DNA of 63,999 bases, filler included, from Kipferlia bialata (taxonomy: Eukaryota): assembly GCA_003568945.1 (NCBI GenBank). It is 5 parts of 5 records of this genome, joined end to end, with 100 filler letters (N's around TTAATTAATTAA, not from the genome) between each part and the next. Parts side by side here need not be neighbours in the genome. Positions count along the whole stretch, not along the records: positions 1 to 16,024 come from BDIP01000641.1; positions 16,125 to 32,140 come from BDIP01000643.1; positions 32,241 to 48,210 come from BDIP01000644.1; positions 48,311 to 56,608 come from BDIP01000657.1; 1 more part is not named here. The stretch is one strand, 5' to 3'. Numbering within the stretch: the stretch's first letter is position 1; each line of letters opens with the position of its first letter. Below, one piece after another: positions 487-55,846 of the stretch. Below the pieces are notes generated by a model, which was given only the letters and a program-made list of their open reading frames with translations, had not been told where the DNA came from and ran no database searches. The translations under genes were made by a program, and so were the position numbers.

Positions 487-2755
487 GGTCAGACCCAAGG
501 CCCTGTCTATATGCTACTTCCCCACAGTGGATGAGAGAGAGGTACATACATATATTCATATGGTATATATATGAGATTTAATCATTGTGCCTGACACTAA
601 CTAGATTGGATTGTGTATCATTACTGTTCATGTGATACAGGTTCATGGCGGAAGAGAGTTGTTTGTAATGTGTATACGTGATGTATGTACAGTGTCTACA
701 CCAGGTCGATAGGGGCAGAGTGGCCCACTATTACGTGGGTATACACACATACTATATATATATATATATGTATGTATCTCCTCTAAGTATGTATATCTAT
801 GTATCTAACCCGAGGTCGAGAGGGCCAGGTTATCCGAAGAGAGTATGATGTTAATGTATATACAATTATACATACACTACTATATACACGACGTATCTAT
901 TCCTGTATCTATCAAACCCCAGGTCGAGAGCCTATCCATATCTCTTCTAAGTATATATATCTATCTATCTATCTCTAACCTCAGGTCGAGAGGGACAGGC
1001 TATCTAGAGAGAGGAAGGCAGAGAGGGAGAAGGAGAGAGAGAGGGAGAGAGTGGAGAGGGGGCTGTCTGCGTCACCACCCAGGTATATATGCAGCATATG
1101 TAATATATATGTATACATATACTATTGTTGATTATTATTCACCTAGCCCCCAGGTCTGCTACGTCTCGCTATCTCTCTCTCTCTCTCATATGATTACTAT
1201 GAATTGTTATTGTATCTACCTAATCCCCAGGTCTGCCAAGGCCAAGAGGTCCACTGAGTGTGTATATAGTATTATATAAGTAAGTATGTATATATATATG
1301 TATATAACAATCAGGTCTGCCAAGGCCAAGAGGTCCACTGACCCTGTCGAGCCTGCCCCACTCACACTGAGGGAGAGGAAGAAGGAGGTATATATATAAT
1401 CTGTATACAAATTTACTATGTACTGACCAAAGGATTCAATAGGGCAAATGTATACATATATACTATCTCTCTACCAGACTTGTTTACTAATACGTGTGTA
1501 TATACTAGTGTATGACGTCTCTCATATCAGGCTGCTGTACTACGATGTGCTGCTGACCAAGTATGATTCATAATGTCTATCATATTTTTAGTTATACTAG
1601 TACATTATACACTATTGTATACACTGTACTGGTCTGTGATGTCTCAATGTCAGGTTGTGCTGACCAAGTAATATGTATTAGCCTATTGTCATATATCTCT
1701 TTGTAAAGTGTGTATATAGTGTATACTCTTTACTGGATTCCAGTATGTATCATTCTCATGTCAGGTTGTGCTGTACTACGACGTGCTGCTGACCAATGTG
1801 TCCAAGGACGTGATCAGGTACGATCCTCTCTCTATCTGTCTCTCTCTTCATTATTATTATATATATATACACTCATATGTACAGTATAGTGATTGTAAAG
1901 ACGTCAATGTGTATATTTGATGAGCTACTGACAAATGTGTCCAAGGACGTGATCAGGTGTGATGTAGATCATTGATACAATGGTGTATAATACAATAGCA
2001 TCTTCCCTCCACTAATATATGCATTACTGCACTAACACCCTAGGCTAGTCACCCCCCTCCCACCCTTGTCCTGCCTCAGAATGCAGTCAGTCACAGGGCT
2101 ACTGTCTCCAGGTATTGTACTTACTCCTTCACCCCAAGTCTCTCTCTCTCTCTCTCTCTCTCTACACCCTTTACCTTAGGCACCTCTATCAAGGCCACTG
2201 TCTCCTTCACTCCCAGTCTCTGTGATGTGCTGCCCCTGGAGACAGAGATCAGGTACATATATATATGTATGTATATATATAGAGAGAGAGAGAGACGGAG
2301 GCAGCGTTCAGTATGAAGTATATATATATATATATGTAAGAATTGTTCCTCCTCAGTCTCTGTGATGTGCTGCCCCTGCAGACAGAGATCAGGTGCAGAT
2401 GTATATGGAGAGAGAGAAGAGACAGAGGGTGCACAATGTGCCTCTGTGGACGATATATATATATTTAATACTAGTATTATATATATATATATATAATACA
2501 TCCACATCTGTAATGCTCTGGTATCACACTTCCTCTCTCTAATCCCCCAGGCTCCGCACTACAGCAGGGGACGTGGTCATACCGGTCAGAGGTGGGTCTT
2601 AGCGTGTGAATGTGTGGTACCAGTCCTGTCTGACCTCTCCACCCTGTACAGACATCTCCCTCCCTCTCTCTCTCTCTCGCTCTCTATATGTATATATATT
2701 AGTATTTTCCTTACTCTAGTCCTCCCCGATCTGTCCACCCTGTCCACTCCCCTTT

Positions 2756-2790
<35 letters not shown>

Positions 2791-3145
2791 TCACATATGC
2801 ACGTGAGTACCTGTCTCACTATCAGTCCTGCCCGACCTGTCCTTCCTGTACAGACATATCCCCCCCCTCTCTCTCTCGCTTTATATATATTCTATATTTA
2901 TTCATTAATATCTCTGTATGTGTATGTTGCTGTATGTTCCTATCCCTAGTCCTCCCCGACCTCTCTACCCTGTACAGACGCAGGATAGGTTTCTCTCTCT
3001 CTATATATATACACGTATATATATAGATGTATGTTAGCCATACCTGACCCCCTAGTTCTCCCCGACCTGTCCACCCTGTACAGACGCAGGATAGGGGTGG
3101 ATGCTGTGTCACCCAGCATGGTCAGGTATCTATCTATCTATCTAC

Positions 3146-3182
<37 letters not shown>

Positions 3183-15555: not shown

Positions 15556-15557
<2 letters not shown>
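7689..15557 (+). CDS. About 22-exon gene for a secreted/surface protein with an N-terminal signal peptide; resembles marine-phage virion/structural proteins
   Basis: Exon 1 (7689-7802) MHTLSVCLALACVLACCVCA-FNDAGPCIHALADGELKK; exon 2 (8291-8338) GDAVIVNPDGTVSSVQ. Final exons 14373-14488, 14811-14849, 15145-15215 and 15431-15557 give ...HESTNLTKSNLVGMADGNYSHGQLVTVNTIGATNDGQWALTAGERYCVTESGDLSVISDD...TGRAITSNQMLITL*. Gene structure is well supported; the phage resemblance is recalled, not searched. Confidence 0.7.
8346..8660. repeat. Degenerate (TA)n/(TG)n intronic microsatellite, representative of intron filler throughout the window
   Basis: About 300 nt of tatatatg-type repeats; similar (TA)n, (TC)n, (GA)n and poly-C tracts occur in nearly every intron. 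Confidence 0.9.
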
Positions 15558-15594
<37 letters not shown>

Positions 15595-16024
15595 CAGGGC
15601 CATCACATCTAACCAGATGCTGGTGACACTCTAGATATCTATATATTCATATTGAGAGAGAGAAAGAGAGGGAGATGGGGAATAGTGACATGTAATTCAG
15701 GGTTAGTACCGTGCCATAACTCCACCTCTTCGTTGTGGAAGTGATGAGTACTTAACTGTAGACAGGGTCTTGCAACAGACACTTGACTAAAGGCAGACAC
15801 AGAAGTATTGAGGCAATGAGGGGGATGTTACCATATGCTTCTCACTGTGACTCACTCCCTTGAATATATATAGTATACGTGGGAGAGTCTTCCCACTGCA
15901 GGTGGGTCACAGAGTGTGACCGTCTTAAGTCACATTCGTCAAGATGTACTATGTACGCTCATCCAGCTAGTGGTACATTGAAATGAATCATATGTGTATC
16001 ACGGACCGAGTTGGTGAAACCTAT

Positions 16025-16124
16025 NNNNNNNNNNNNNNNNNNNNNNNNNNNNNNNNNNNNNNNNNNNNTTAATTAATTAANNNNNNNNNNNNNNNNNNNN
16101 NNNNNNNNNNNNNNNNNNNNNNNN
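16025..16124. other. Artificial scaffold linker (N44-TTAATTAATTAA-N44)
   Basis: TTAATTAATTAA (stop in all six frames) at 16069-16080, flanked by 44 N each side; identical linkers recur three more times. Confidence 0.97.
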
Positions 16125-16180
<56 letters not shown>

Positions 16181-16289
16181 ACTTACCCTATAAGTCATTG
16201 ATGGCTCTGCCCCCCCCTGATGTGGAGAAATATATGCATATATAAATGCGTATATATTTCATCTTTTGGCTCTCTTCTTATATCCCTAG

Positions 16290-16914
16290 GTCATTGATGG
16301 CACTGCCCCCCCTGATGCAGAGACATCTAGCATACTGGACAGTCACTTGTATTGGGTAATAGAGGGACCAGGTACATATGTATACATATATATATATATA
16401 CTATTCGATATATATATATATAGTGAATGGATATCTATGTGTGTGAGCATACATGTATAGTGGACAGTCACTTGTATTGGGCCTCAGCTTGACCGGGTAC
16501 ATATATATGTATATATACTATTCGATATAGATATATATATATACTATACTACTAACTGTATACACTATATATACATATATGTATTACCTGAGATGAGTCA
16601 GAGGAGGAACATGTACTGTTACTAACTTCGCCATCATAAATATCATAAATATCATAAGTATACTAACTAATAAATGTATACTAACTTATAAATTTACGTA
16701 TACTAACTAGATACCTCTCTCGCTGTGTAACTCTTCCGCTGTCTACTAACCCCACCACGTAACCTCCTGGTCCTTCCCGCATCTCTCTCTCTCTCCCCTC
16801 TCCTCCTTACACCCAGTGCGTATCCTCCTCATCCAGGCCAATGGGGTCACAGGATCAGGTATATATATACGTATATACATATATATTCACATACACATTA
16901 ACTATATATACCTA

Positions 16915-16951
<37 letters not shown>

Positions 16952-17694
16952 ACCCAATGGTCCTGGCCAACGGGGTCACAGGGTCAGGTACTGAATAATT
17001 AGCATATATATATGTACTATATACTGTATATGTATACTATATACCACCATATATATGTGTTTCCTCCTTGTCCTGGTCAATGGATACACAGGGTCAGGTA
17101 TGTGTATGCATACATCTATATATACGTTATATATCAGTATTTATGTATATTATATAAATATATATATATATATACTTATAGTATCATACACATATACATA
17201 TAGGAATTAAATATTGTGTGTATATAACAAATGGAGTCACGGAGTCAGGTAAAGATATATATATATATATACTCTGTAAGTTCTCTATATTTGTCCATGT
17301 GTATGATTACACTTGATGTGTACTATGATTTCCAGTGTCTCTCTGTCTTAGGATTCTGTGGTGGGTAGAGTATAAACTCTGTATATACTGTAAATGTATA
17401 GTATGTATATTATACAGTCTAGGCAAGAACAATCCACTTTGCCTATCTTACAAACTCTCTCTGTGTATGCACTTACTTATACTTTACCCTTCCTCGATAT
17501 ATACATATATATATATATATATGTATGTATGTATATACTCTCACTCTCTAGGCAAGACATTCACTGTACAGCACGTGGTGCGTAGAGTGCTCAGGCACCT
17601 GGAAGAGGAGAGAGACCGCCTTATCAGCTCAGGTAGGACCATTTACTATCTCTCTCTCCCTCTCTCTCTATATATATATACATATACATATATC

Positions 17695-17725
<31 letters not shown>

Positions 17726-17994
17726 TATCAGAGTACTCAGCCACCTGGAAGAGGAGAGAGGCAGACTCATCAGCTCAGGTTTGAGAGTATTGTATTGTGT
17801 GTTCTAGTTATGTATTGTGTACGTGGCTCCTAGTTCTCTTCCAATGCTAGGTGTCACTACCTCTGTATACACATTCGGCCTCTCTGTCTCTCTCTCTCTC
17901 TGTCTCTCTCTCTCTGTCTCTCGGCCTCTTTCTCTCCCTTCCATTTGTCTTTGGATATGTGAGAGATGTGTCTATAAGCCTTTGTGCACATATA

Positions 17995-18032
<38 letters not shown>

Positions 18033-19304
18033 CTTCACATAACTATCGACTCATCCAGGTCAACACGCCTCTGTGTACACATACTGCCTTGAGTTCAGGG
18101 CCACAGTCAAGAGGAAGACCCACGGGGAGTACGGTTATGTATATAGATAGATTTGTATATATGTAGAGGGGGAGAGAGAGAGAGAGAGGAAGAGCCACAG
18201 TCAAGAGGAAGACCCACGGGGAGTACGTACCCATATCAGTATGTATTCATTAGATATAGAATAGTGTATGAACATCCGTATTTACATAGACACAATCTAA
18301 TATAACTACAGGTACACCTGTGGTAAGATGCCGTGCTACAGACTGTCGATATATGTATATTCATTAAATACCATATAGATGATATTGTATATATGAATAT
18401 GTATCATGTCTAATACAGGTACACCTGTGGCAGATGCAGTGCTACGGACTGGATGCAGACACACACTAATGCATATATATATATACATACATATAAATAT
18501 GTATATGTATATATTCATCTATTCCCTAACCTGTAGGTACACCTGTGGCAAGATGCAGTGCTACAGACTGGATGCAGACACCAAGGCAGAGAGGGACAAG
18601 GTCTTGGAGCCAATGCTGTACGTGACAATGATATTAATGCATATACATAGGGGGAGAGAGAGAGAGAGAGATGCAGACACCAAGGCAGAGAGGGACAAGG
18701 TCTTGGAGCCAAGACTGTACGTGTATATTGCTAAATGTAGAGAGAGATTAGTTTCCTGCTCCATTACTCTGTCACCTTCTGATGTATATAATGTATATAC
18801 GTATATACTATAGTATTGTTACTGTTCATGCCTATATATGTCTTACTGACCATAGCACACGCCCCCCTTCCTTTGGCAGCACTGTTAGTGTCACGCCAAG
18901 GGAGATGGGGACAGCACAAGGGGCATATGAGGCATATATGGTATGTATGTATATATGTGAGACTAAGGAAGAGAGAGAGAGAGACAATGGGAGATGGGGA
19001 CAGCACAGGAGGCATATGAGGCCTTTATGGTGAGTTCTTCAATATATATATACATACCTGCTTGGGTTTGTATGAATTGAGGGGGGAGAGTCTGCATTTA
19101 TGGTATGGACCCATGTATACCTATGTGGATATATAGTATCACTCTCTTTCTGACTGATACATATAGGCCCTCACCCGTATCACCAAATGCATCTATATAC
19201 ATGGATTCATATACATATATACACTTATCTTGGTATATATGTATACATTTATATATATACTTATATATAGGCCCTCCCCCGTATCACCCTGGCCACCAAG
19301 TATA

Positions 19305-19346
<42 letters not shown>

Positions 19347-22300
19347 ATAGGCACTTCCTAGGATCACCCTTGCCACCAAGGGCAACCCGACCAGTTCTAG
19401 GAGCCATGCAGCCATATGTGCCACACTCACTGTGGTATGCATGCATAGTATATAGTATACTATATACTGTATGTATGTATATAGTATATATAGTATATAT
19501 AGTATATATAGTATATATAGTATATATTTACTATACTATGCAGCCATATGTGCCACACTCACTGTGGTATGCATGCATAGTATATGTACTCCTCTACGTT
19601 ACCATTAGTCACGCTTAGTCACCATGGCATACATGCATAGTATATAGTTCACTGTATATGCATTGAATATTCACCATGGTATACATGCAAAGTGTATGTA
19701 TAGTATACTAAATGTATTCTATATACTATGTTACCACCGATGTCACGCTCACAATGTCATACATATATGAGTGAGTATATAATTATTACCACGTAAATAT
19801 CTCACCCCAGGGAGAGGGGAAGGCACGGAGAGAGGTGGCGAGTGTCATGCTGGTGGACATGGCAGGTTAGACAAAAGAGGGTATATATGTATATAGAAAT
19901 ACTTANNNNNNNNNNNNNNNNNNNNNNNNNNNNNNNNNNNNNNNNNNNNNNNNNNNNNNNNNNNNNNNNNNNNNNNNNNNNNNNNNNNNNNNNNNNNNNN
20001 NNNNNNNNNNNACTGTATCTATGAGAGAGGTGGCGAGTGTCATGATGGTGGACATGGCAGGTGAGAGAGAGGCATTAATACTATATATATGTATAGTATA
20101 TAGTATGTTAATCTATATTGTCTATATTAATACATCTATGAGGGAGGTGGCGAGTGTCATGATGGTGGACATGGCAGGTGAGAGAGAGGGATTAATACTA
20201 TATTTATATATAGTATATAGTATGTTATACTATATTGTATATATTAATATATCTAGGAGGGAGGTGGCGAGTGTCATGATGGTGGACATGGCAGGTATGT
20301 GATATATGTATGTATATATACATACACTCTATACTATTCTCTACTCTACTATATGGATATGTATATGGATATGGATATGTATATGATATCGGTGGCCAGT
20401 GTCATGATGGTGGACATGGCAGGTATACATAGATATACATATATATATACATAGGTTGATGAGTCTAGTGTATATGTGTGTCTTGTATATATAGTGTATA
20501 TGTATATGACAGAAGTTGTCAATGTGATGATTGTGGAAATGGCAGGTGATGCTACTAGGAGTACATATGCACTATATAGTATACACACATATGGTGCATA
20601 CATATGGGTACATACACAGCCGCACATGGTTGATATGGCAGGTGAGGCTACAAGGAGTATATAAACTCACTATATAGTATGAATGTATGTACCTATGTAC
20701 CTATATATATATGTGTGTGTGTGTGTGTTGTGCTTGTGGACATGGAAGGTGAGACTAGAAAGAGTGTATGGGGTAGATATTCCTATGTTAAGATTCATAA
20801 TATTACATACTGCTTGCTACTCATATGCACTTTTTTCGTATATGAATTGTTTCTGACTCGAGGCCGTGAGTCCTTCAACGCTGACTCATATACTATTGAT
20901 TTGTGTGTGCGGGTATGCTTACCTCAGGCAGTGAGCCCTTTGACTATGACGCCGACCCTAAGCTGAGAGCACAGGTGGGTACTTATGTACATATATACAC
21001 ACATACACACACAAATATTTGGTATGTATACTATACATTTGATACTGATATATTTGATACTGATACTGATATATATACTTATGCAAAGGACAAGGCCATC
21101 AACTCTGACCAGACTGCATATATGCGTATATGATAATACCTAAGATTATATATATATGTTTATACACTAACGTGTGGGCCACTAATTAGATCATATATAT
21201 ATATATATGTATATATACTTACGTATAGGGCAAGGCCATCAACTCCGACCAGACTGCATTCAAGAGTCACATGACAGACCTGCTCAGAGAGAACAAGGCA
21301 GGGAGGAATGCACTCAGGTATCACTAGTATGTATATATATTTAGAGAAAGAGAGAGAGAGAGAGAGACACGAGGCACTGCAGGATGAGAGAGAGAGAGAG
21401 AGACAACAAGGCAGGGAGGAATGCACTCAGGTATCACTAGTATATATAATATGTATTATAGTGTACACTCACTTATGGATAGTATATAAATATATATAGA
21501 GAGAGAGAGAGTGTGTCGCATGACAGACCTGCTCAGAGAGAACAAGGCAGGGAGGACTGCACTCAGGTATCACTAGTATATACAATATATATTATAGTGT
21601 ACACTCACTTATGTATAGTATATATACAGAGAGAGAGAGAGAGAGAGAGAGTCACATGACAGACCTGCTCAGAGACAACAAGGCAGGGAGGACTGCAATG
21701 AGGTGTATAGTATATTATATATATATACATGTACTATATGTATTAGATATGTATATACTCAGACATATATATATATAGAGAGAGAGAGAGTTGCATGACA
21801 GACCGGCTCAGAGACAACAAGGCAGGGAGGACTGCAATGAGGTATATAATACATGTATACAGTGTATTAGTATGTATGTATATATAGTACTGTCACTATC
21901 TATAATGTATGTATATATATATAGATATATATTGGACTGCGTATTAATATGGAACATATTAACACCAGGGGCTCTGAGCTCCTGAAGGTCATCTCCCCCT
22001 ACTTTAGTGGTGACCCTAGACACCCTGAGGTACATATACCAATATAATATATATATATATATATATAAGTGTGTATATATATATACACTCAGTCCTAATC
22101 CTCAGGCCAGGGTGGTGCTGATAGGGTGTGTGTATGGACACCCGGACCAGTACAACAACGCTAAGGTACTGATATATGTGTATACACATATATCAGGTAT
22201 ATACTCTGTATACTCTATATACTATTACGCGTCGGGTGTGTGTATGGATATCAGGACCAGTGCAACAACGCGAAAGTTACTTTTGGATGTAGGGTTTATG

Positions 22301-25300
22301 CTACTGTATATATATTTGTGCTGATATGGTGTGTGTATGGTCACCGGGACCATAACACTCTGGTAAGTGTACTACAGTGTGTAACATACTGGTGATATGA
22401 TGTGATTATTGTATGGACAGTTCAACCAGGCAAGGTGTACATATATGAGTAGGTATCGTAACATACTCCCAGCTTAGAACACCCTTGAGTTCATCAGCCG
22501 TAGGCTTTTGTCTCTCTCCCCCCCCCCCTCTATATCTCTATATCTCTCTCTATATATATGTACATATCTTACCCCCAGAACACCCTTGAGTTCATCAGCC
22601 GCAGCAGGGGCATCAATCCACAGACAGTCTCAAAGTGAGTGGCAATATATGTATAATCTATATATTAGATTATACATATGTATTTGATATATGTTTGTGT
22701 ATATATCATGTTTCATTGGAACTATATGTGTCATACTAGAATAGTGTATCAAACACCTGTCCTAGTCTCATCATCGACTGCCTTCCAAACTATATGCTGC
22801 TCCTATTTACTATTCGATACACATATACTACCTGAGGCGTTTATGTCCTATTTGGTGTCAAAAATAAAAGAACAGTATCACTTATACCGATCTACAGGGC
22901 GTATGCCTCTATAACAATCTTCTCAGAATATATGTATGCATGTATATCATTGACTGACCCCTGGGTATATGCCGCCACTGACCGTATCTCTGCCTCTCTC
23001 TCTATATATATAAGTATATCTCTCTCTATATATTTATATATATTAGTATGTATGTGTTCACGTGTATATTCTTCTGAACCCAGGGCATGTGCCGCCACTC
23101 AGCGTGTCTTTCTCACCATATATACATAGATATCTGCATATATATAGAGAGAGAGTATGTCTAACCCCAGGGCAACAGCCATCACTCAGCGTATCTCTAG
23201 GGATGCACACCGTCCTTACTACGGGAGTCCTACCCTGAACAAGCTGAGAGGTATGCATCGCTTACACGATATCCCCACACTCTACGTATTCAAATTGTAC
23301 ATATATGAATTAGTGTTTGGTGTACATAAACACACACACACACACACACTCTTCACATGAATGTATATATACAGGTGTAGTATAGTATAGTATATATATA
23401 GTAGTATATGTACCACAATACTCATTGTGGTGGGGAAGCCAAGATGGCCCAGAGGACGGCTACTATTATTATATTATATTTATATATATTATACGTGTAG
23501 AGTTGTTTGTATATATAGTATATTGTGTATATAGTGTAGCACGTGTAGTATATACCCTTACTCCCAGCCAATATGGCCCAGAGGACGGACTTCACTACAT
23601 ATATATGTATACATTCATAGTATAGAGGTATATTGTATATAGTATATATAGTATATATAGTATATATATAGTATATATATAGTATATATTGTCTATATTT
23701 AGCAATATACTCACTGTAGCCAAGATGGCCCAGAGGACGGAAAGGGCTACTAGGCGGCTGCAGCAGGCTGAGAGAGAGGGAGAGAGAGAGATGGAGCTGG
23801 AGGAGTTTGACACTGAGACTGACACCATCAGCATATCAGTGGATAGGGAGGCACTGCAGAACATAGAGAGGTACAATGATTACATATATTCAGATGTCAG
23901 TATATATATATGTATGTATGTATGTATGTGTGTATGTATATTTACACTATAACTGGGGGTCTATGTCCTTGATTTGGGAGAGATACAGTCATTGCATGAA
24001 TATTCGTCAAGTGCGGGCTACTGACTTCTCTTGACGTCTTTATACCTCTATTGACTTCTCTTGACTCTCAGGGAGATCACTGAACTGGCCGTACAGGTGC
24101 AGATACTGTCCCAGACAAGAACAGGTGTGTACATATACCGTTGATTATTAGTATGGTATTAATGCATAATTGTGTATATAGCAACAAATGTTCTACTTAG
24201 ACAAGCAGTCGGACTCTGCCGCCAAGGACAGTCTCATATTATATATATTTTGTGTATTTGTTATACTATATATACGTATATAATTATATATATGTATATA
24301 CTGACTCACTCTTAGAGATGCAGTCTGAGTCAGCTGACAAGGATAGTCGCATTGTAGACCTCAAGGCGCAGCTGGAGGAGCAGAGGCAGAGCATTGAAGA
24401 GTACCGGGATAAGGAGGACAGGTATATGTTTCTATTAGTGTATTAACATAGGTACTCCACATATATACGACCTGAGTATTAGTAACTACTCACCCTAGGG
24501 ACCGTCAGGCTCTGGATGCTGCCAACACCCTTGCTCTAGAGGCCAGAGCAGAGGCAGCCAAGTGGAGGGAGAGACTCGACACCACAAGGTAATATACTAT
24601 GCTGTTCATTGTGATATACTAGGTGTATATAGTACAGTAATTATCAAGTGGAGGGAGAGACTCGACACCACAAGGTAGGAGACTCCGCACTGAGGAGGCA
24701 ATACTATTTCGTGGCATATACTGGGTGTATATGGTATAGTATAGTATAGTTATTATAGTGCCAAGTGGAGGGAGAGACTAGATAGCTTGAGGTGAGGATA
24801 TGCAATACAAATGATTATCATGTGCTTTGTATGGAGATAGTAGACTTGTAATACTAGGTGTGTATACAGTGGTCTGTTTGAGTATAGTTGTCTTACCCCT
24901 AGGGACAAGCTAGACAGGGCTACCGACAGGGCTATGGAGGCGGAGGATAGGGCAGGTACGGAAAGAATATGAATATATGTGTATATATGAATCACTGTAT
25001 ATATAGAGAATATAGCATGGCGTATGCTCTGGATAGGGCTGGGGAGGCGGAGGAGAGGGCAGGTTCGGATTGTATGAGGATATGTATATATCTATGTATG
25101 TCCAATATTCTAATCCAGCTGAGTACACCGCCACCATATCCTGTCTCCAGCAGTCACTCAGAGAGGCAGAGAGGGAGAGAGAGAGGGAGAGAGAGACTGC
25201 ACTTAGAGAGGCAGAGAGAGAGAGAGAGACTGCAGTCAGAGAGACAGAGAGGGAGAGAGAGACTGCTCTGAGAGAGGCAGAGAGGGAGAGAGAGACTGCC

Positions 25301-26857: not shown

Positions 26858-26892
<35 letters not shown>

Positions 26893-31011: not shown

Positions 31012-31599
31012 TTACACAAATGCCTTGAAGCCAGAACGGCCAGAGACCCTGGGGGTAAGACGTATATTAATATATATATATATATATATATACTCTAGTA
31101 TTACTACACCTGTTCTTCCTGAGCCTATCCTTCTGAGCATATATGTGTATGTGTATATATTAACATGCCTGTTCTTTCTGAGCACCAGGAACCATGTGAC
31201 ACATATGTACACACGCCATTATATACATATATACATATATCCATCAGTATATGACAATAGTAATGCATACATATACATACCTGTTCTTCCTGAGCACCAG
31301 GAACCATGTGACACCCCCCACCAGAGCAATGACTAGCAGGACAAGGAGGACCCACACCCACCTGGAGTGAGGTATATATAGATAGAGAGAGAGAGAGAGA
31401 GAATGGCAAGGAGGACAAGGAGGACCCAGACCCACCTGGGTATGAGTGGTGTCTTATATATACAGGCTGAGCACCATAAATACATATATACATTCAATCT
31501 ATACTCACCAAGATGTGTGCCCATCTGAGCCCAGCACCACAAAGGATGCATAGGAGCCAGCAGAGATGGTGGTGATCTCAGTGCCTGATATAAGGGTCT

Positions 31600-31640
<41 letters not shown>

Positions 31641-31957
31641 CATAGGAGCCAGCAGAGATGGTAGTGAAAATAGCTGGGTACTGTATATATACAAAATGGA
31701 GATACTTCCTACCCGCTTCGTATCCCATGTCCACCAGGGCAGTAGTCTCTCTCTCTCTCTCTATCTAGTATATAATGTATACATACTATATACCTGCTTC
31801 GTATCCCATGTCCACGAGGGTAGAAGTGTATAACAATATATATATGTGCGTGAACTATATTAACCACTATACACTATATATACATATATATACCCACCCG
31901 CTTCGTATCCCATGTCCACCAGGGTTGGGGTGGAGACAGTGGCAGTGGCATCATAGT
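31012..31957 (-). CDS. C-terminal part of a single-pass membrane protein with an RCC1-like repeat (5'-truncated)
   Basis: Four minus-strand exons: YDATATVSTPTLVDMGYEA|GTEITTISAGSYASFVVLGSDGHTSW|WVWVLLVLLVIALVGGVTWFLVLRKNR|VSGRSGFKAFV*. Clear TM helix with a basic stop-transfer. PTLV...I..ISAG..S.V..SDG resembles an RCC1 repeat. Confidence 0.65.
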
Positions 31958-32140
31958 CTGGGGGGTCAGATCTATATATATATATATATATAGATGTGCA
32001 CTCATATATTGACGCATGTATTCACATGTATAGGTACATCTATATGGGGGTGGAGACAGTGGCAGTGGCATCATAGTCTGGGAAAGTGAGACAGAGAGGG
32101 GGGGGGGGAGAGAGAGAGAGAAAGAGCGAGAGAAAGAGAT

Positions 32141-32240: not shown

Positions 32241-32280
<40 letters not shown>

Positions 32281-32284
<4 letters not shown>

Positions 32285-32396
32285 TACACCCTTATGTCAG
32301 CTGCTGCCCATGACATTGAGCACTGTATCTCTCTCTCCCCCCCTCTACACCCTTATATCAGCTGCTCCCCATGACATTGAGCACTCTCTCTCTCTC

Positions 32397-32438
<42 letters not shown>

Positions 32439-32690
32439 TGCACCCTTATATCAGCTGCTGCCCATGACATTGAGCACTGTATCTCTCTCTCCCCCCCTCT
32501 ACCCCCTTATATCAGCTCCTGCCCATGACATTGAACCCTCTCTCCCTCTCCCTCTCTCCGTCTCTCTCTCTCTCTCTCTCTCTCCCTCTGCACCCTTATT
32601 TCAGCTGCTGCCCATGACATTGAGCACACACTCTCTCTCTCCCTCCCTCTACACCCTTATTTCAGCTGCTGCCCATGACATTGAGCACTG
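32281..32690 (+). repeat. Stack of upstream acceptor echoes before the PDE HD exon
   Basis: cacccttat(a/t/g)tcag|ctgctgcccatgacattga occurs six times; five stop after about 20-27 nt in (TC)n, and only the last (32666) continues as the exon. Confidence 0.9.
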
Positions 32691-32899
32691 CGGAGTGAGT
32701 CCAGACCTGCTCGTCAACATGAGGTGGTGCATGGATATATACACACATATATATATATTTATATATATATACAGGAATCAAGAGATAGTGTTCAATAGTT
32801 TCATACACACATGTACCAGTTTCCGCTTATTCTAACCGTTAACACACACGAACACACTCTCTCTACTGTTTTAACTCTTAAACACCCTCTGTATCATGA

Positions 32900-32944
<45 letters not shown>

Positions 32945-33939
32945 CGCCCTTACTAGTAACACCCAGACACCCTCTGTACCATGTATTTGGCCAGGACAGT
33001 ACCCTTGAACTGTACCACTCCATGCTGGGGGCATACGTCATAAGGTATACTATATATATATATATATATATATTAATATGTACTGTCTCTATACTGGTAT
33101 GAGCTATACCACTCCATGCTGGGGGCATACGTCATAAGGTATATGTTATATATATGTGTATATATATACTATCTGTATACTGGTCTGTATATTGGCATGT
33201 GTATCTACCCTTGAACTGTACCACTCGATGCTGGGGGCATACGTCATAAGGTATATATGCTATATATGTGTATATATAAACATATGTACTGTCTCTATAC
33301 TGGTGTGTGTATCTACCCTAGAGAGCTCTACCACTCCATGCTGGGCACATATGTCATAAGGTGTGTACTGTTGCACTCACAAAGAATGCATGTACACTCC
33401 TATACTGGTTATACACACTATTGGGTGTATATGTGTACTCAACCCAGATACTATGGCGTCCTTGACAAGATTGATGCCTCTGCAACATGTGTATATATGT
33501 CATATATACATATATAGACTACTATAGACTATATTACCTGTGTATACATGTTCCTATGTATATAATCACTCACATCAGATACTACGGCGTCCTAGACAAG
33601 ATTGATGCCTCTGCACCATGTGTATATCTATCTATATATCTATACTACTTCATTTACCTATGCATACATGTTTCTATGTACATACACTCACATCAGATAC
33701 TACGGCGTCCTTGACAAGATTGATGCCTCTGCCTCCTACAGTAATATGTTCCAGAGACTGATACTGGCAACGGATCCAAAGGTATCGATGTATTAATATA
33801 TGATTGTATAATGTATAGTGTATTCGCTTCGCCGTTACGTATATTTGTCAAGTGCAACATGTTCCAGAGATTGATCCTGGCTACGTATCCCAAGGTTTGT
33901 AGCACTATACATATGATAATACCCATGTGTATGTATGTG

Positions 33940-33972
<33 letters not shown>

Positions 33973-35372
33973 GTTACCGAGATTGATACTGGCTACGGAT
34001 CCAAAGGTGTGAAGTGATATATATATATATATATAAGTATAATAGCACTACGCATAAATGTGTAGGTATACATATGCATGTATGTATATTGCAACATGTT
34101 CCAGAGACTCATATTGGCAACGGATCCAAAGGTAACACTCTACATATATGTGTATATATACGCCTTCACATACTATATGTATGTATATAATTAATTGGAC
34201 CTCTATGTATATAGAGTGACATGTTCCAGAGACTCATACTGGCAACGGATCCCACGATATAGAATGTATATATATACAATTGAAAGACAATTTGTATGGT
34301 ATATGATATCTTCTTACCCCCAGAGTCTGTTTGACAGTGCCTCTTTGTTTAAGGGATATGTATTACTATACAGAGCTACGATGGCTTACTGTATGTGTGT
34401 ACCACTATATACCTATGAATACAAGTGTCTACCAACCTTCAGAGTCTGTTTGACAGTGCATTATATAAATGTGTGTATACCCATACATATGAATACATAT
34501 ATATGTATGTGTAAGTGTATATCTTCTAACCCCCCAGAGTCTGTTTGACAGTACATTGATATATATGTGTATATACCCATACATATACCCATATATATAT
34601 ATATATACATATATATGTATGTAAGTATCATCTAACATCTCCAGAGTCTGTTTGACAGTGCCTCATCCTTCAAGGACTATGTATTACTGTACAGAGCTAC
34701 AAGTATACCACCATACAACTATGAATACATGTGTCTACTAACCTCCAGAGTCTGTTTGACAGTGCCTCATCCTTCACGGACTGATGTTCATATGTATATA
34801 TATATATGTATGTGTCACTCTAGTGTATACTAACACCCCAGAGTCTGTTTGACAGTGCCTCATCCTTCAAGGACTATGTGGCAGAGAGGCAGAAGGGGGA
34901 GGGGGAGGGGGAGGGGGAGGGAGAGACGCCTGAGCTGACTGAGGAGGTGTGTATTCACTATAATGTATGCTGATGTTATGTCTACATCTCTCTCTCTCTC
35001 TATCCATCTATGTATATGTATGGGTATATGTATTAATTCATATCTCTAACCTCTAGGCCACTGACTCTGTGCTGTGTGGCATCATCAGACTGGCAGACAT
35101 CAGCAACGCATCGAGGTATAGTATGTATATCTATATATATATATAAGGGTGACTATACAATATGCATGGAACTGAATTATCGCATTGAGGTTGCAGTTTG
35201 TATTGTGTATTAAGTGCGGTATGTTTCCCTGCGTTTCTCTCTTCTCTTTCCCCAGACTGGCAGACATCAGTAACGCCTTAATGGGTGTTTCATTCTTTCT
35301 GTCTCTTTCTTTAGTATATACACATACCTTCAACGTGGCCAAGACCCACTCTCTCAATGTCATGAGGGAGTT

Positions 35373-35408
<36 letters not shown>

Positions 35409-36973
35409 CATATCTATATGTCTATAGGTATATACTTATATACTCATATTAGGCCCTTCCCAGTGGCCAAGACCCACTCCCTCAATGTCATGAGGGAGTT
35501 CTTCAGGACAGGGGACATGGAGGACGCATGTGGGTTACAGGTAGGGATATAGATGTGTAGACATATGTATATATATTTGTACTGTGATACAGTGACCTGT
35601 TTGTTCAGTATATGATACCTTTTGAGAGTGTCTCGGTTTCACAATGTGAAGTGTTTGTATGAGTATATTATTATATATGTCTGTTGCTGTATGTACCTCG
35701 CCAACACCCCAGATTGGTCTGTACAGGGATAGACAGGGGGGACCAGAGGCAGTCAGAAAGTGTCAGGTATATACTGTACATATATTAATGTTTTTGTCAG
35801 GTATATACTGTACATATAGTATGTAAACACAGTATATATAGTGTATATATATAGTATATATAGCCATTAATGTACCTCGGGGACCTGAGGCAGTCAGAAA
35901 GTGCCAAGTAACGTCTCAATAATATGGAATAGGCATATATTCACATTGTATTTTAGTATCATTCAGCCTCTCATCCCACCCTCATTCCAGACCTCCTTCA
36001 TTGACTTTGTGGTCAGGATGTACAAATATGTTCACTTCAATAATAATGTAAATAGGAGTTGACCATATCATTAGAGACACTTCATTCCCTTTGTACTAAC
36101 ACCAGACCTCCTTCATTGACTTTGTTAATACTTACGTTCAATCTCTCTCTCTCTCTCTTTGTGTTCCTAATATTGCCTCTGCCCCCTCATTTCAGACCTC
36201 CTTCATTGACTTTGTACATATAGTATATATATACAGTATATATAGTATATACATATATAGTATATATATATATTACTTCTTATGCCAGACCTCCTTCATT
36301 GACTTTGTCGTCAGGATGTACGCAGAGGCTTTCAGAGACTACACAAGGTGTGTGTACAATCAGCGTCGTCTCCTCATCCTGCCACGCTCTCTCTCTATTA
36401 TCTCCAGTGGAATCCTTCTGGTCTGTCTGTATATACATACATTGTCTCTAGTTATGGCTCACCTCTAGGGCCCTACAACTGCAGCTGGAAGTGGTTCCCA
36501 CTAGTCCACTGGATACAAGTGCCACTAGTCCAAGTGGTGGAACAGCGAGGTAAATGGGTTATTATGTCTAGGTCTCCATAACTTGTTCATGTGTTATTCA
36601 TTGACTCTCTGATGATCTTACGTATATATAAAGATATATATATATAGTATACTATTATTCTAACATCAGTCTCTGCCTCCCCGTCTGTGTAGACACCATG
36701 GCCCAGAGGATGTATATATATATATATATATATGTATATATTCACACCTATATATACTCTTCTTACCATAGTATGTGTCTCCCCACTTGTGTAGACACCA
36801 TGGCACAGAGGATGTATATACCCTTATATATATATATATGTATATATATACATATAGTATAATAATATTCTAACATCAGTCTCTGCCTCCCCGTCTGTGT
36901 AGACACCATGGCACAGAGGATGGACACAAACAAGGAGAGGTGGAGGGAGGTGAGACTCTTGGTTGTATATATG

Positions 36974-37010
<37 letters not shown>

Positions 37011-37050
37011 TACACGAACAGGAGAGGTGGAGGGAGGTGAGACTCTTGGT

Positions 37051-37091
<41 letters not shown>

Positions 37092-37227
37092 TACACGAAC
37101 CAGGGGAGGTGGAGAGAGGTGAGAATGTGTTCATGTACGGATGCTATAATGAGTAGGTATGTGTAACTCACCCCTTCAGGTCCCTGATACCGACCCTGAC
37201 TTGGTGGCGTGTCTCAACCACCACTAA
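32666..37227 (+). CDS. Class I 3',5'-cyclic nucleotide phosphodiesterase, C-terminal catalytic domain (5'-truncated)
   Basis: Spliced motifs in canonical order: AAAHDIEHCG (HDxxH), STLELYH, LILATD, RLADISNASRPF, MREFFRTGDME, KCQ|TSFIDFVV (invariant Gln), NKERW. Ends ...CLNHH* at TAA 37225-37227. Confidence 0.92.
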
Positions 37228-37801: not shown

Positions 37802-38322
37802 ATGGCCCCTACCAAGCCCAGTCTACTCGCCCAGAAGAAGGTACAGGCTCTCTCTCTCTCTCTCTCTCTCTCTCAGTATCTATGTTTGCGTGTATTCATA
37901 TGTATGACATGTTGCTAACATACACTTACACTGTCACCATAGCGCTCTCCATACCCTCCATGTTTATCTATACCATCATGTATCGCCTCCCCCCATTATA
38001 TATGGACTGGGGGCCTTGATTACTCAATCCTCGATGAGGTGTCTCGTGACGTCATTGACACTCTACAGTTATGAAGGCATCACATGTAATAGTGAGAGGG
38101 TGTTGTATGCGTGCCCTATATGCATCCTGTTCATACATCACATGCTCTGTGAGCCTTATATAGCTCTAATGTATACTCTTATGCCTGGTCACAAGTCCAC
38201 ACCGATATCTATTTTTAGATCATCGCTTGTCACCCAACACTTTTTACACTTTCACACTGCCTATTGACCACTCACTTCAGGCTTCTCCCTAACCCCTCAA
38301 GGTCTTGTTTATGAACCCCTGA

Positions 38323-51298: not shown

Positions 51299-53163
51299 CC
51301 TTCTCCTTCCTTTCCATCTGCGTTCGCCTCTCTCTCCATGTCCTCGCCCTATCCATGGATTTCTCTCTATCACTTATTCCCCCCCCCTCTCTCTCTCTCT
51401 ACTATATATATATTCATATATATATATTTATGAATTGTATGTATGATTATATATTATATTACCCCTCTTTGATACCTAGGTCTTTCTCTAACCCACCCCC
51501 CCTCGCTCTATATGTATCTATGTCTCACCCCTAGGTCCTCCTCTCAATATAGCACAGACAGAAGGGCAACCATCTCTCTCTCTCTCTCCCCATCTCTCTC
51601 TCTATCTCACAATCAGGTCCTCCTCTCCATAGAGCACAGACAGAAGGGCAAGCAGCGTGATGAGTTCTCTCTCCACATCCTAGGGGGCAAGAAGGAACCC
51701 GGCGAGACAGTCAGGCAGACAGCAGTGAGGTACCTACCCGCATATAGCTATGTATACATACGCAATGGTGCCACTCTAATAGTATGTTGAGACAGCAGTC
51801 AGGTATAGTTGAGTAGTAACGTTGTATTTGTATTCCTCTCTCTCTCTCACCCCCAGGGAGTTCTGGGAGGAGACCAGTGAACTCCTGCGCCTCAGTGAGT
51901 GTGATGCCATGCTGGCACCAGAGGCTCAGCCAATGTACGCACAATTTGTAAATATATGTATGTGTTTATATAGCGTGTCTCACTCTCTCCGGGTATATAA
52001 TAGTGTATGTATATGAGATATTGTTAGTATACAATAATACATTTGACTGCTGGGACCAGACGCTCGGCTGGTGTACGTATGTATACTCATCTTTCTTGGT
52101 CTGTCTCTGTGTGTGGTATACCCATATACATATATACCTAACTTCCAGATTTGTATTGAGTGGCCAGCATGTTTGTGACCCTCTTGGTTCTCTCTCTCTA
52201 TCTCTCTGTCTCTATATCTAACCCACAGTTACATTGAGAGTGGCAAGTACTCTCTCTTTGTGACCCCTGCCTCTGATAGGGTACAGGCACTGCCGGACAG
52301 GTTCACACCCAACAGAGAGGTATATATACTCTAAAACTCCTTATCTTTCTATAGTATACAGGGCAATATACCGTAGAGAGTAGAATAGTCTTCTTGTGTG
52401 ACAGGCACTGCCGGACAGGTTCACCCCAAACAGAGCGGTATCTTAACTCAGTGAAACCGTGTTCTCTCTCTAGTGAGATAGTATATAGTACAGGGTATAG
52501 TGGTATTGTGTGACATTACTATCAGATAGCTCTCTGTGAGTTCTCTACCCTATACGTCTCACTGTTAGGTGCATAGACTGGTCTGGATCAGTCTGGACTA
52601 GTGTGTCATTACTCTACCATATTGAATACACAAGATTTGTCTTTCTATTCTCCTCTTATCTCTCAGGTCCATAGGCTGGTCTGGATCAGTCTGGACAGCC
52701 TTCTGCATGGAGTGAGGGAAAGGGTGCCCCTTACCCTACCAAGGGGGGTGGTAGTAGCTGGAGAGACAGAGGGAGAGGGAGAGGGAGAGGAGACTGTCCT
52801 CAAGACAAGCAGGTACATGGATCCGCTGTCTGATATGTTATCATTGTATATGTGATGTATACCAGTACCTTGCTCCAACTCTCATGTGACATGGGCACAG
52901 TGTATTGTAAATATAGTCTGTATACTACTCTCTATAGTATATTCTTTATAACACCCAGGTTCCTGGCCACTGTCATGTGGCACAGAAGGGACACAAGTAT
53001 AATAGTGGATCAGTATATATATATATGTGTATATATGTATGTATGCAGTGTATAGACTCTCATATCAAGGTTCCTGGCCACTGTGATGTGGCACAAGGGT
53101 ACTGAGCCCACGGTCAGACAGGTGGCACAGGGGATAGACGAGACACCAGATACTACCGAGTGA
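50749..53163 (+). CDS. Nudix hydrolase
   Basis: Nudix box split by an intron: LHILGGKKEPGETVRQTAVR|EFWEETS (GX5EX7REUXEE); downstream NRE|VHRLVWISLDSL; stop TGA 53161-53163. First exon is tentative. Confidence 0.85.
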
Positions 53164-54025
53164 CCTTTCTTGGTTCAGAGTGCCTACAAGTCTCAATTTA
53201 CAGAGGGATAGTGAGTAGGTGAACTGCACCTGTTCTGTAGATCATGGTCACACATGTCGCAAGAGGCTGAGAGGGGGAGATTGGTAGGGTATGCACCGGT
53301 TGAGTGGTGAAACCCTGCCCAAGTAGGGATTCTAGGAGTGAGCGCCATACTGTATTTAATGGTCAGGGGCACTCTAGAAGGGCAAGCTCTAGTGTCTACA
53401 CACGAAAGCGCCATGGAGCAGAGTGGTTGATTGCGTCTTTTGATCCCTTCAGTTCTTGCACTGCCCTCCTTCCCTTATAATCGAGTGGCGTATGCCCAAT
53501 TTGGGATCAATGTAGATACTTGTGCTATGGGCTTATATTCACTGGAGTCTTTGCATACTCAATATTACAGCACTGCCGTCCAGGTTGAGTTAGCCGCAGT
53601 ACACGATATATATGGACCAGGATGCTTTGTCAGCATATATATCAATTTTCATGGTAATAGACTGGCTCGAACCTTAGGGTCACTGCTCTCTCCTCCTAGG
53701 TTCTGTGTGTGATATTGTTATTATTCTTCGAGACCACATGTCAGATTCTTGTGAGGACAACTAATTAGGATGACAGTAGTACTGGGACCTATTATAAACC
53801 CTTTCCCACCTTGTCAAAAAGTCATTTTTGAGTCAAATACTCGATAAGGGTTCAGCAGAAGTCCTCTGCCGCACTGTCTTCGGTGGAAGGAGACTGAGTG
53901 CCCACGTTGTGTCTGTGAGACCAACCAGTGCCTCCCCAGTTACAGAGAGACCCCTAGGCCCTTGGCGGCACCTCTTGTTCCAGACCAGGCCAGGGTGCGA
54001 GAGAGAGAGAGAGAGAGAGAGAGCG

Positions 54026-54522
54026 ATGAGCGATGATGAGTGCAGCAGCTACTCCTCCTCCTCCTCCTCGGCCTCCTTCGACCTCGAGGCAGCCTGCAAC
54101 AACGACTCGCCCATCACACACGCCCCTGCGAAGCCTGCCTTTGTGGAGAAGAAGCGGCCACGACAGGGGACTGGGTTGAGTGTGCCTGTGGTCAAGAAGC
54201 CAGATCCCTGGAAGAAGGTGGCTGCCCAGTCGCCTGTGCGCAAGGCACACCCCATTCCCAGGATTGTGGTGCCTGTTGTGGCCAAGAAGCCGAAGAAGGA
54301 GAGCACTGGCCGGCTGGAGAACCCCCTGCAGGACCCCTTTGCCACCAGCCATCGCATCTGTGACGACAGTGACTGCCACACAGAGAGCCAGTTCGAGACA
54401 GAGTCATCGGAGAGTGCGTCAGATGTAGGGTTCACATTCCAGGTATGCGTGGTTGGAGTATAGTGTGTGTGTATGTTTGTGGACAGCACTCGTAGTACTA
54501 CCCTCACCTCTCTCATACCTAT

Positions 54523-54555
<33 letters not shown>

Positions 54556-55846
54556 GTATGTGTGTGTGTGGGTGTCTATGTGTGTGTGGGTGTATCTATT
54601 GGGTACCCCTCCTAGGTTGGCGTTGTGGATTTATGCGGCTCAACTTCTTACGTCTGACAGTATATATACAGTATACCCCATCTGACGTCTTACAGTATAT
54701 TCCCCCATGTCTGATACCTGTAGATACCTTGTCAGAGAGTAATACTCTTGAATCTTGTATCTGGTATATATGTCAGTGGGTGATATCGGATCAGTCCGGC
54801 CATGGCGATGGACACAGCCTTCTGATAAGCTAGACCTATATACATATTTATAGACACACATATATATACCTGCCCAATATCCAGGTCAGTAAGTCTATGG
54901 CTGCCATCAAGGAGAAGTATATCTATACTACTACCCCCCCTCTATCTATTTCCCCCTCTATGTATGACTATATCTAACCTCTAGGCCAGCGAGTCCCTGG
55001 CTGCCATCAACGATATGTATATAGCTCTCTCTCTCTATATATATAAATACATATCATGTGTCTCTCTCTATATCTGTTCTAACCCCCAGGCCAGCGAGTC
55101 CCTGGCTGCCATCAAGGAGAAGAATACTTCTATGTATTAGTATATACATATCCATACATATATATATACAGCTTCCTCACTCATATCCAGGCCAGCGAGT
55201 CCCTGGCTGCCATCAAGGAGAAGGAGAAGCATGCCGCTCTGATGGGCATCTCTCTCAATGTGGAGAAGAGCAGTGAGGTATGAGTAGTGTATATACCATG
55301 TACTACTATATACATATATGTGTCTATACCATATGCCGCCCTGATGGGTATCTCTCTCAATGTGGAGAAGAGCAGTGAGGTGTATATATGCTATATACTA
55401 TATATAGTATATATATGCCCGTCTGTCTAACCCCAGGTCTCTGACAGTGAGGAGCCTGTGTTTGCCATACTCTCTCTATATATATATACAATACATATTG
55501 AGGAGATAGTATTTGTAATTGTATATACCTCTTACCCCAGGTGTCTGACAGTGAGGAGCCTGTCTTCGCTATGCCCTCCTATAAGGACGGGGACAAGTAC
55601 ACACTGCCGGAGGACAGTGATATAGCACAGGTACTACTCATATATCTGTCTAAAATATAGATATACATGTATATAGATATTGCACAGGTCACTTTGTAGA
55701 ATTAATGTATATGTTTAGATATATGTTCTATCTATTGTGTGTTGTACTATATACCTATCTAACCCTAGGAGCAGACCGAGACCATGAGTGGGTTGGACTA
55801 CTCCTCGGGTGACACGCCCAGAGTGTTCTCGGGGTTCAGGCTCTAG
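54026..55846 (+). CDS. Hypothetical Ser/Glu/Lys-rich, probably disordered protein (4 exons)
   Basis: MSDDECSSYSS...VGFTFQ|ASESLAAIKEKEKH...EKSSE|VSDSEEPVFAMPS...DIAQ|EQTETMSGLDY...FSGFRL*; GT-AG junctions in frame. Confidence 0.7.

What the first reader, a model, noticed from the sequence alone, without database searches (positions are those of the whole stretch)
487..55560. Polarised 'exon-edge echo' stacks: introns built from partial copies of the adjacent exon ends with splice signals attached
Seen directly in almost every multi-exon gene, on both strands and in all five scaffolds. Upstream of an exon the intron holds 1-5 copies of [branch point + YAG + first 10-45 nt of the exon] that break off into (TA)n/(TC)n (e.g. 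1150-1255, 32281-32665, 34320-34790, 43591-44064). Downstream it holds 1-7 copies of [last 15-50 nt of the exon + GT] (e.g. 4136-4485, 16964-17248, 20023-20768, 21400-21841). I found no clear case of a 5' piece downstream or a 3' piece upstream. Much of the intron length is therefore produced by repeated duplication across coding boundaries. I know of no description of this as a genome-wide system, but I could not check the literature.
Basis: seen in the sequence. Interest (0 to 1): 0.92.

Follow-up and report, generated by a model that had tools for sequence, protein, structure and literature searches.

The report
Fossil exon ends fill protist introns
In a free-living relative of Giardia, about half of the intron DNA examined is built from leftover copies of the neighbouring exon's start or end, each with its own splice signal; the copies differ from the working exon mostly at silent positions, so they are likely older working versions left behind when DNA repair copied from a diverged chromosome.

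Summary
Confirmed, and stranger than first reported. The window is Kipferlia bialata DNA. I found 173 direct partial exon copies beside 81 of 139 curated exons; 171 of 172 classifiable ones are polarised, none is inverted, and none was found in 6.4 kb of intergenic control. Read-derived contigs show three echoes at full depth, so that locus is not misassembled. Polarity is only the geometry of head-to-tail duplication, and boundary duplications are known as amphioxus 'mirages'; this scan noted such repeats before in animal DNA. New here: echoes differ from the live exon at 15.9% of third against 4.6-4.7% of first/second codon positions (pN/pS 0.22; neutral-copy simulation 0.43-0.51). They keep near-live splice signals, yet their intron side is mostly unrelated to the live flank. 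They therefore most likely diverged as working alleles. Best mechanism (0.55): break repair from a diverged haplotype, in a species lacking Ku70 and Rad51A but holding Dmc1 and Pol theta, which leaves the old exon end behind. Skipping the echoes would need exon definition. No RNA evidence and no second haplotype were obtained.

The parts
487..7145 (+). Gene A, 17 curated exons, 27 echoes; no database protein checked
   Evidence: Open frame when echoes are skipped; counts
2632..2989 (+). Four 5' echoes of exon 3056-3125, each with its own acceptor
4136..4470 (+). Three 3' echoes of exon 3947-4036 (one follows an N gap)
6217..6519 (+). Three 5' echoes of exon 6619-6759; two share a junction and homologous spacers
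7689..15557 (+). Gene B, 21 exons, 27 echoes; equals KIPB_003376 (P0012)
15587..15634 (+). 3' echo behind the stop codon of gene B, preceded by (GA)n; no splice site involved
16290..29648 (+). Gene KIN, 28 exons, 36 echoes; equals KIPB_003380 (P0011); MORN repeats by Pfam; kinesin-like N-terminal motifs are my recall, not a call result
20023..20748 (+). Six scored 3' echoes of exon 19811-19865
21399..21836 (+). Four 3' echoes of exon 21229-21317, each behind (GA)n
24562..25150 (+). End of exon 24499-24588, three 3' echoes and exon 24903-24955, spanned by read-derived DNA contigs with no differing letter
31012..32077 (-). Gene C (partial), 4 exons, 7 echoes
32301..37227 (+). Phosphodiesterase-like gene (one exon hits PDEase_I, E=0.008, below the cutoff), 11 exons, 30 echoes
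32301..32627 (+). Five 5' echoes with homologous spacers: a classic mirage-like minisatellite
33856..34782 (+). One intron with four 3' echoes followed by five 5' echoes
35991..36215 (+). Three 5' echoes of exon 36289-36347: near-identical exon pieces, different acceptor tails
38418..44279 (+). Gene T, 13 exons, 22 echoes; TFIIH p34-like by recalled motifs only, not confirmed
43689..44020 (+). Four scored 5' echoes of exon 44065-44279 with (TC)n spacers
44351..46788 (-). RNA ligase gene (P0001), 8 exons, 4 echoes, two of them behind the stop codon
47138..48170 (-). Gene D (partial), 4 exons, 4 echoes
48924..50388 (+). Kelch gene with a 3' echo behind the stop codon (50322-50388)
51535..53163 (+). 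NUDIX-like gene (weak Pfam hit, E=0.067), 5 exons, 5 echoes
54026..55846 (+). Gene E, 4 exons, 5 echoes
56879..63943 (-). Scaffold 5 genes F, G, H: 22 exons, 4 echoes, shorter and GC-richer introns; scored stack at 63416-63607

Best explanation
The echoes are real head-to-tail partial copies of exon ends and are likely former working allelic exon ends, left in the intron by break repair that copied from a diverged haplotype. Shown: the anatomy, the polarity, intact splice signals, coding-type divergence and mostly unrelated intron flanks. Inferred steps: (1) a break falls in or near a short exon (median 74 bp), the only stretch still homologous between diverged haplotypes. (2) One end invades the other haplotype's exon and copies outward through its splice site and about 70 nt of its intron (period about 104-118 nt). 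(3) The extended end is joined to the other broken end by microhomology end-joining, often at (TC)n, read on the strand that ends in the exon; or it anneals at the donor's existing echo, which re-uses the breakpoint. (4) The old half-exon with its splice site becomes intronic and decays. (5) It is harmless because it lacks a partner site across the exon, which implies exon definition. A minority of stacks then expand as ordinary minisatellites.
For: Codon bias: differences by codon position 85/1810, 83/1818, 287/1804; pS 0.214, pN 0.047, ratio 0.22 (bootstrap 0.17-0.28; 168 echoes), against 0.43-0.51 simulated for a neutrally decaying copy. A fixed 15-nt window without alignment trimming gives 22.1% against 5.3/5.9% (116 echoes). 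Changes private to one echo are synonymous in 44 of 79 (23% expected); live-private changes number only 11. A model with synonymous divergence present at birth fits far better (A 0.10-0.15, gain in lnL 21-47). In the 29 pairs with clearly homologous spacers, spacer (12.0%) and third-position (11.7%) divergence match while positions 1+2 are 2.5%, as expected of alleles. Signals: AG kept in 77 of 88, GT in 67 of 76; 50 echo acceptors with unrelated flanks score 3.15 against 3.31 live and 0.7-1.3 after 20-25% simulated decay. Geometry: only 2 of 153 echoes leave under 16 nt of the exon (44 expected); breakpoints re-used in 40 of 100 pairs (15.9 expected); no repeats in 6,352 intergenic bases; (CT)n at 39/89 5' breaks against 0/77 3' breaks, (GA)n at 14/77 against 1/89. 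Splicing: 2 of 88 5' echoes have a strong donor behind them, 4 of 80 3' echoes a strong acceptor before them, and donor echoes precede acceptor echoes in 23 of 23 introns. Machinery: K. bialata has no Ku70 or Rad51A, four Dmc1 entries and Pol theta (PMC8516963, section 8 and rows of Supplementary Data 2); Dmc1-type residues stabilise mismatched joints (PMC6719624, abstract and section 17).
Against: No second haplotype was seen at the one locus laid: no other letters and no joints. Flanks are far more diverged than synonymous sites (median z 0.81; 3.8 expected for 21% substitutions plus indels); this is unexplained. Nearer echoes are somewhat more like the live exon (45 against 25 pairs; pS 0.154 against 0.207), as serial copying would also give. 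In the three database-matched genes the ratio is weaker, 0.30 (0.21-0.42). The fixed-tract-length signal holds for 5' echoes (rho -0.36) but not 3' echoes (0.01). Four-gamete violations (13 of 26) only modestly exceed serial duplication (0.31, p 0.03). The (CT)/(GA) asymmetry could partly reflect splicing selection. The repair steps themselves are untested, and live exons rest on open frames and database gene models, not on RNA.
Confidence: 0.55

Rival explanations
1. Ordinary mirage minisatellites: same-chromosome slippage or unequal exchange duplicates the boundary, the intron part decays, and later gene conversion from live alleles refreshes only the exon part.
For: 11 of 110 stacks are seen as tandem arrays by TRF (loci counted by me, one gap artefact and one coding repeat set aside); 32 of 243 spacer pairs are homologous; breakpoints are re-used; there is an age gradient; amphioxus mirages behave so.
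Against: Branch-point regions of echoes with unrelated flanks are almost as strong as live ones, which conversion of the exon part alone would not preserve. Plain neutral copies cannot give pN/pS under about 0.43. It still needs diverged alleles.
Confidence: 0.22
2. RNA-guided delivery: intron ends from unrelated introns are placed at the exact splice junction (reverse splicing or cDNA-templated repair), so homology stops at the AG/GT.
For: Identity drops at the splice site; 28 of the 34 youngest-looking echoes have flank z under 2; every copy has a ready-made signal.
Against: Echoes also occur behind stop codons. Flanks keep slight similarity to their own live flank (median z 0.81 against 0.09 control). 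The best cross-locus spacer matches are only (TC)n-driven, though the window holds only 125 introns. It does not by itself explain the synonymous bias.
Confidence: 0.1
3. Echo halves are still translated: transcripts or somatic DNA swap the live exon end for an echo through the shared sequence, so selection on them is current.
For: Low pN/pS, only 3 stops in 1,693 codons (13-15 expected for neutral copies), conservative replacements, intact signals.
Against: 10 frameshifting and no in-frame gaps in echoes; pN rises with distance from the exon (0.020, 0.044); no deletion joints in DNA contigs at one locus; database models skip all echoes.
Confidence: 0.07
4. Assembly artefact: short-read misassembly or concatenated alleles.
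For: Short-read scaffolds with gaps; two gap-flank duplicates are likely artefacts; echoes look like alleles.
Against: Read-derived contigs of 113 and 544 nt span three echoes at uniform depth, with double depth on the shared word; 0.95 of sampled words of 25482-32140 are in that run. Stacks hold up to six different copies with unique junctions.
Confidence: 0.02

Closest known systems
Amphioxus 'mirage' minisatellites (globins BflGb6 and BflGb9, Adh3, troponin C, PGBD5; PMC3087553 and PMC3902484, passages read; the original Adh paper PMC117041 was not held)
   Same: Tandem copies of exon-intron boundaries at both 5' and 3' edges, units of about 60-160 bp, cryptic AG/GT that reportedly do not disturb splicing.
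   Different: Mirages are single-gene cases with 81-100% whole-unit identity and concerted evolution. Here 81 of 139 exons are affected, the intron side is mostly unrelated between copies, and divergence is codon-biased. The passages read report no codon bias; the papers' alignment supplements were not read.
Intron gain by tandem duplication of an AG/GT segment (Rogers model; cited in PMC3087553 passages; PMC3265369 seen as search listing only)
   Same: Local duplication that multiplies splice signals.
   Different: No new intron results, and intron ends show no excess of direct repeats.
One-sided invasion / aborted synthesis-dependent strand annealing finished by Pol theta end-joining (mechanism recalled; search listing only)
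   Same: Predicts short direct duplications, filler from the template, microhomology junctions and a minimum homology on the invading end.
   Different: Not known to me as a genome-wide builder of introns that samples diverged alleles; not tested experimentally here.
Human F7 intron 7 37-bp VNTR (named in earlier scan notes; not read)
   Same: First unit spans the exon-intron border, giving a row of pseudo donor sites.
   Different: A single homogeneous minisatellite; not checked by me.

Membership tests
Mirage minisatellites | Head-to-tail copies spanning an exon-intron boundary, at 5' and 3' edges | tested here: met
   173 direct copies, 171 of 172 polarised
Mirage minisatellites | Copies carry AG/GT signals | tested here: met
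   AG 77 of 88, GT 67 of 76
Mirage minisatellites | Whole unit, intron part included, is homologous (81-100%), as in a minisatellite | tested here: not met
   Met only by a minority: 11 of 110 stacks by TRF, 32 of 243 spacer pairs; identity drops at the splice site
Mirage minisatellites | Normal splicing ignores the copies | tested here: inconclusive
   Open frames and three database models skip them; no transcript evidence obtained
Mirage minisatellites | Copy number varies between haplotypes or cells | tested here: inconclusive
   No variation in contigs of one DNA run at one locus; contigs drop rare variants
Intron gain by tandem duplication | Direct repeats at the two intron ends beyond the AG/GT consensus | tested here: not met
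   13 observed against 12.5 expected at 5 nt or more, 125 introns
Duplicated mutually exclusive exons | Whole exon copied with both splice sites | tested here: not met
   Echoes cover at most 74% of exons up to 120 nt; one weak full-length hit
Transposon or introner insertion with target-site duplication | A shared inserted element between the two copies at different loci | tested here: not met
   Best cross-locus spacer matches are (TC)n-driven; low power with 64 kb
Repair templated by a diverged allele | Copies diverged under coding selection before they became intronic | tested here: met
Repair templated by a diverged allele | Diverged donor haplotypes exist in the species | not testable with these tools
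   No whole genome held; no close relative found in two metagenome scans; one locus uniform

The most novel reading that the evidence does not exclude
The echoes are still-used spare exon halves: K. bialata swaps an exon's start or end for an echo by a homology-guided junction in RNA or somatic DNA, so each exon has a small library of alternative ends under current protein-level selection.
Probability: 0.07. Interest if true: 0.95.

Novelty: new variant of a known kind. Interest (0 to 1): 0.78.

Why it matters
If the window is typical, about half of this genome's intron DNA comes from one repair by-product: 173 echoes per 125 introns extrapolates to roughly 10^5 echoes for the 124,912 introns published for the species (my extrapolation from five long scaffolds). 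That is a route of intron growth without transposons. The introns would be a layered archive of old alleles, from which past diversity and recombination could be read in a single genome. They would be a natural read-out of repair in a lineage that uses Dmc1 without Rad51A or Ku. They are also a large natural test of splice-site choice: decoy sites as strong as the real ones (echo at least as strong as its live site in 39 of 88 acceptors and 42 of 76 donors) in a protist that retains only 87 of 174 surveyed spliceosomal proteins (PMC6679479, passages), whereas protists are thought to rely mainly on intron definition (PMC2397502, passages). Practically, echoes mislead gene finders: my own hidden Markov model called many of them exons.

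Tried and rejected
RNA: no RNA holder is listed on record; the guessed RNA run laid 0 contigs at 24316-25150. That is no evidence either way, and no reads were laid on scaffold 1. Other isolates: two metagenome scans found no close relative (0 of 127 candidates confirmed; 37 loci, best identity 52%, unrelated MORN proteins). No whole genome was held. Single-event model (a new exon inserted into the middle of the old one, making the 5' and 3' echo together): rejected; lengths are not complementary (permutation p 0.95) and only 3 of 172 overlap sites share a variant. Intron birth by target-site duplication: no excess. Intron hypermutability by substitution: not supported in pairs with alignable spacers, but those pairs were selected for similarity. 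Automatic gene finding called echoes as exons and was replaced by curation. One search used a wrong frame for gene C; searches are corrected; the simulations and gap counts stand. Identity of gene T: the representative search returned one unrelated repetitive protein. Rows dropped: the first candidate exon of gene T (37802-37840, frame did not join); 2 of 173 hits of other polarity before junction analysis; 5 with N or non-positive period; 3 before codon counts (two gap-adjacent, one weak Kelch hit). A partial gene at 56437-56531 was not modelled. The intergenic control was nine hand-chosen stretches that left out the zones just behind the three stop codons with echoes. Literature: ten searches found no description of this pattern in Kipferlia or of codon-biased boundary duplicates; 'duplicat' does not occur in the main text of PMC5874029. 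The library lacks most subscription papers, and bioRxiv supplements were not available.
Full report
Source and layout. The window joins five scaffolds with N spacers. Three exons are 100% identical to proteins named Kipferlia bialata, whose contig lengths (15,970, 16,016, 16,024) equal the scaffold lengths. No whole genome was held, so all counts are for 64 kb. The published draft for this species reports 124,912 introns, Illumina assembly and a k-mer hint of diploidy; the word stem 'duplicat' does not occur in its main text (PMC5874029, passages).

Live exons. A trained gene finder called many echoes as exons, so I curated 139 exons in 14 genes by hand. Skipping every echo gives open frames, and three models equal database proteins exactly. 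Those proteins are predictions, not transcripts; I obtained no RNA evidence.

There are 173 exon-derived pieces in flanks (null 47 of 15,405), all direct; 91 upstream are 5' pieces and 80 of 82 downstream are 3' pieces. Median length is 31 nt and median identity 94%. 77 of 125 introns carry one; echo-less introns have a median of 125 bp and each echo adds about 109 bp. Periods are regular: medians 104 and 118 nt. Echo units make up 17,326 of 35,642 intron bases. Nine intergenic stretches (6,352 nt) gave no hit, against 229 hit tiles in 50,940 genic bases. Scaffold 5 is nearly free of echoes (4 on 22 exons). At 24562-25150, read-derived contigs span three echoes without a differing letter at depth 462-467, and the word shared by exon and echo has depth 967, so that stack is in the reads.

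Polarity is not a mechanism. A head-to-tail duplication across an acceptor must leave the truncated 5' piece upstream, and across a donor the 3' piece downstream (inference from geometry). Echoes also lie behind stop codons in 3 of 12 terminal exons. Such boundary duplications are known as mirages in amphioxus (PMC3087553 and PMC3902484, passages), a lead taken from earlier scan notes on animal DNA.

What is not ordinary, first: the intron side is mostly not a copy. Identity between neighbouring copies is about 0.88 in the exon part and falls to 0.4-0.6 (null 0.3-0.45) just past the AG or GT. Flank similarity has median z 0.81, against 0.09 for other exons of the same gene and 3.8-5.1 expected for homologous flanks at 21% divergence; 34 of 168 flanks have z of 2 or more. 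Only 11 of 110 stacks are tandem arrays to TRF. Yet each copy has its own good signal: AG in 77 of 88, GT in 67 of 76, and acceptors with unrelated flanks score like live ones (3.15 against 3.31; other intronic AGs -4.9).

Second: the copies diverged as coding sequence. Differences from the live exon are 4.7%, 4.6% and 15.9% at codon positions 1, 2 and 3; pN/pS is 0.22 (0.17-0.28) with 3 stops in 1,693 codons. A copy that decays neutrally from birth gives 0.43-0.51 and 13-15 stops (simulation). The bias survives a fixed window without trimming and holds in all gene subsets (0.14-0.37), more weakly in the three database-matched genes (0.30, 0.21-0.42). It is not due to fast change of the live exon: 11 changes are live-private, while echo-private changes are synonymous in 44 of 79. 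Likelihood fits put 10-15% synonymous divergence at birth plus 3-6% later decay. Where spacers do align, they differ as much as third positions (12.0% and 11.7%) while positions 1+2 differ by 2.5%. Ten frameshifting gaps and a rise of pN with distance indicate that echoes are now dead. The simplest reading is that each echo was a working exon end on another haplotype.

Mechanism (inferred). Between diverged haplotypes only exons pair. A break in an exon lets one end invade the other haplotype, copy its exon end, splice site and about 70 nt of intron, and be joined to the other broken end; the resident half-exon becomes the echo. Consistent with this: echoes almost never leave under 16 nt of the exon (2 of 153, 44 expected); (CT)n lies at 5' breaks and (GA)n at 3' breaks, the same tract read on the strand that ends in the exon; breakpoints are re-used (40 of 100, 15.9 expected), as expected when repair anneals at a donor's existing echo. 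K. bialata lacks Ku70 and Rad51A and has four Dmc1 entries and Pol theta (PMC8516963, section 8 and supplement rows); Dmc1-type residues stabilise mismatched joints (PMC6719624, abstract and section 17). The link from this machinery to the echoes is a fit, not a test.

Splicing. Echo sites equal or exceed their live site in 39 of 88 acceptors and 42 of 76 donors. What they lack is a partner across the exon: 2 of 88 and 4 of 80 have one, and donor echoes precede acceptor echoes in 23 of 23 introns. Pairing across the intron would favour the inner decoys, so exon definition is inferred, which is unusual for a protist (PMC2397502, passages) with a reduced spliceosome (PMC6679479, passages).

Against. 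No second haplotype appears at the one locus laid. The excess divergence of flanks over synonymous sites is unexplained. An age gradient exists. The tract-length signal is one-sided. No relatives were found for comparison. Rivals are mirage expansion with later conversion (0.22), RNA-guided delivery of intron ends (0.10), current use (0.07) and artefact (0.02).

Verdict. The pattern works like a mirage in outline but fails the whole-unit homology feature in most stacks. It is a new variant of a known kind, remarkable for its scale and for the coding signature of the copies. Ten literature searches found no description in this organism; the library is incomplete, the original Adh mirage paper was not held, and the mirage papers' alignment supplements were not read. 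Interest 0.78.

Noticed in passing
window 15145-15634 and protein P0013: A second K. bialata protein (Trs65-like, another contig of 6,243 nt) ends in a 92% identical copy of the last 61 residues of gene B, starting in mid-exon. Near the end it has the echo's residue (V), not the live exon's (I). Ectopic capture or mis-annotation.
   Followed up: partly
window 25718-26272: Four copies of a repeated coding unit in the KIN gene: two have an intron at the same AG/GT position (after 25868 and 26071), two do not. Recent intron gain or loss.
   Followed up: partly
window 44476-46788 (-): RNA ligase gene with seven introns whose nine other hits are metagenomic proteins, some named Rnl2 family, at 29-42% identity. 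If laterally acquired, all seven introns were gained in this lineage.
   Followed up: partly
window 44086-44145: Exact in-frame 30-nt tandem duplication inside the last exon of gene T, without spacer.
   Followed up: no
window 56709-63999: Scaffold 5 has shorter, GC-richer introns (AT 51-58%) and almost no echoes; a possible region with little inter-haplotype repair.
   Followed up: partly
acceptors throughout the window: The branch-point-like motif sits only about 6-7 nt before the intron end in both live and echo acceptors, a compact 3' signal like those I recall from Giardia and Trichomonas.
   Followed up: partly
window 25427-25517 and 42725-42830: Identical duplicates on both sides of short N gaps; probably scaffolding overlaps.
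   Followed up: partly
window 31585-31610 (-), 32241-32665, 43555-44064: Acceptor tails of three different genes share (TC)n followed by a similar 15-20 nt ending; chance convergence on the consensus or a shared intron-end family.
   Followed up: partly
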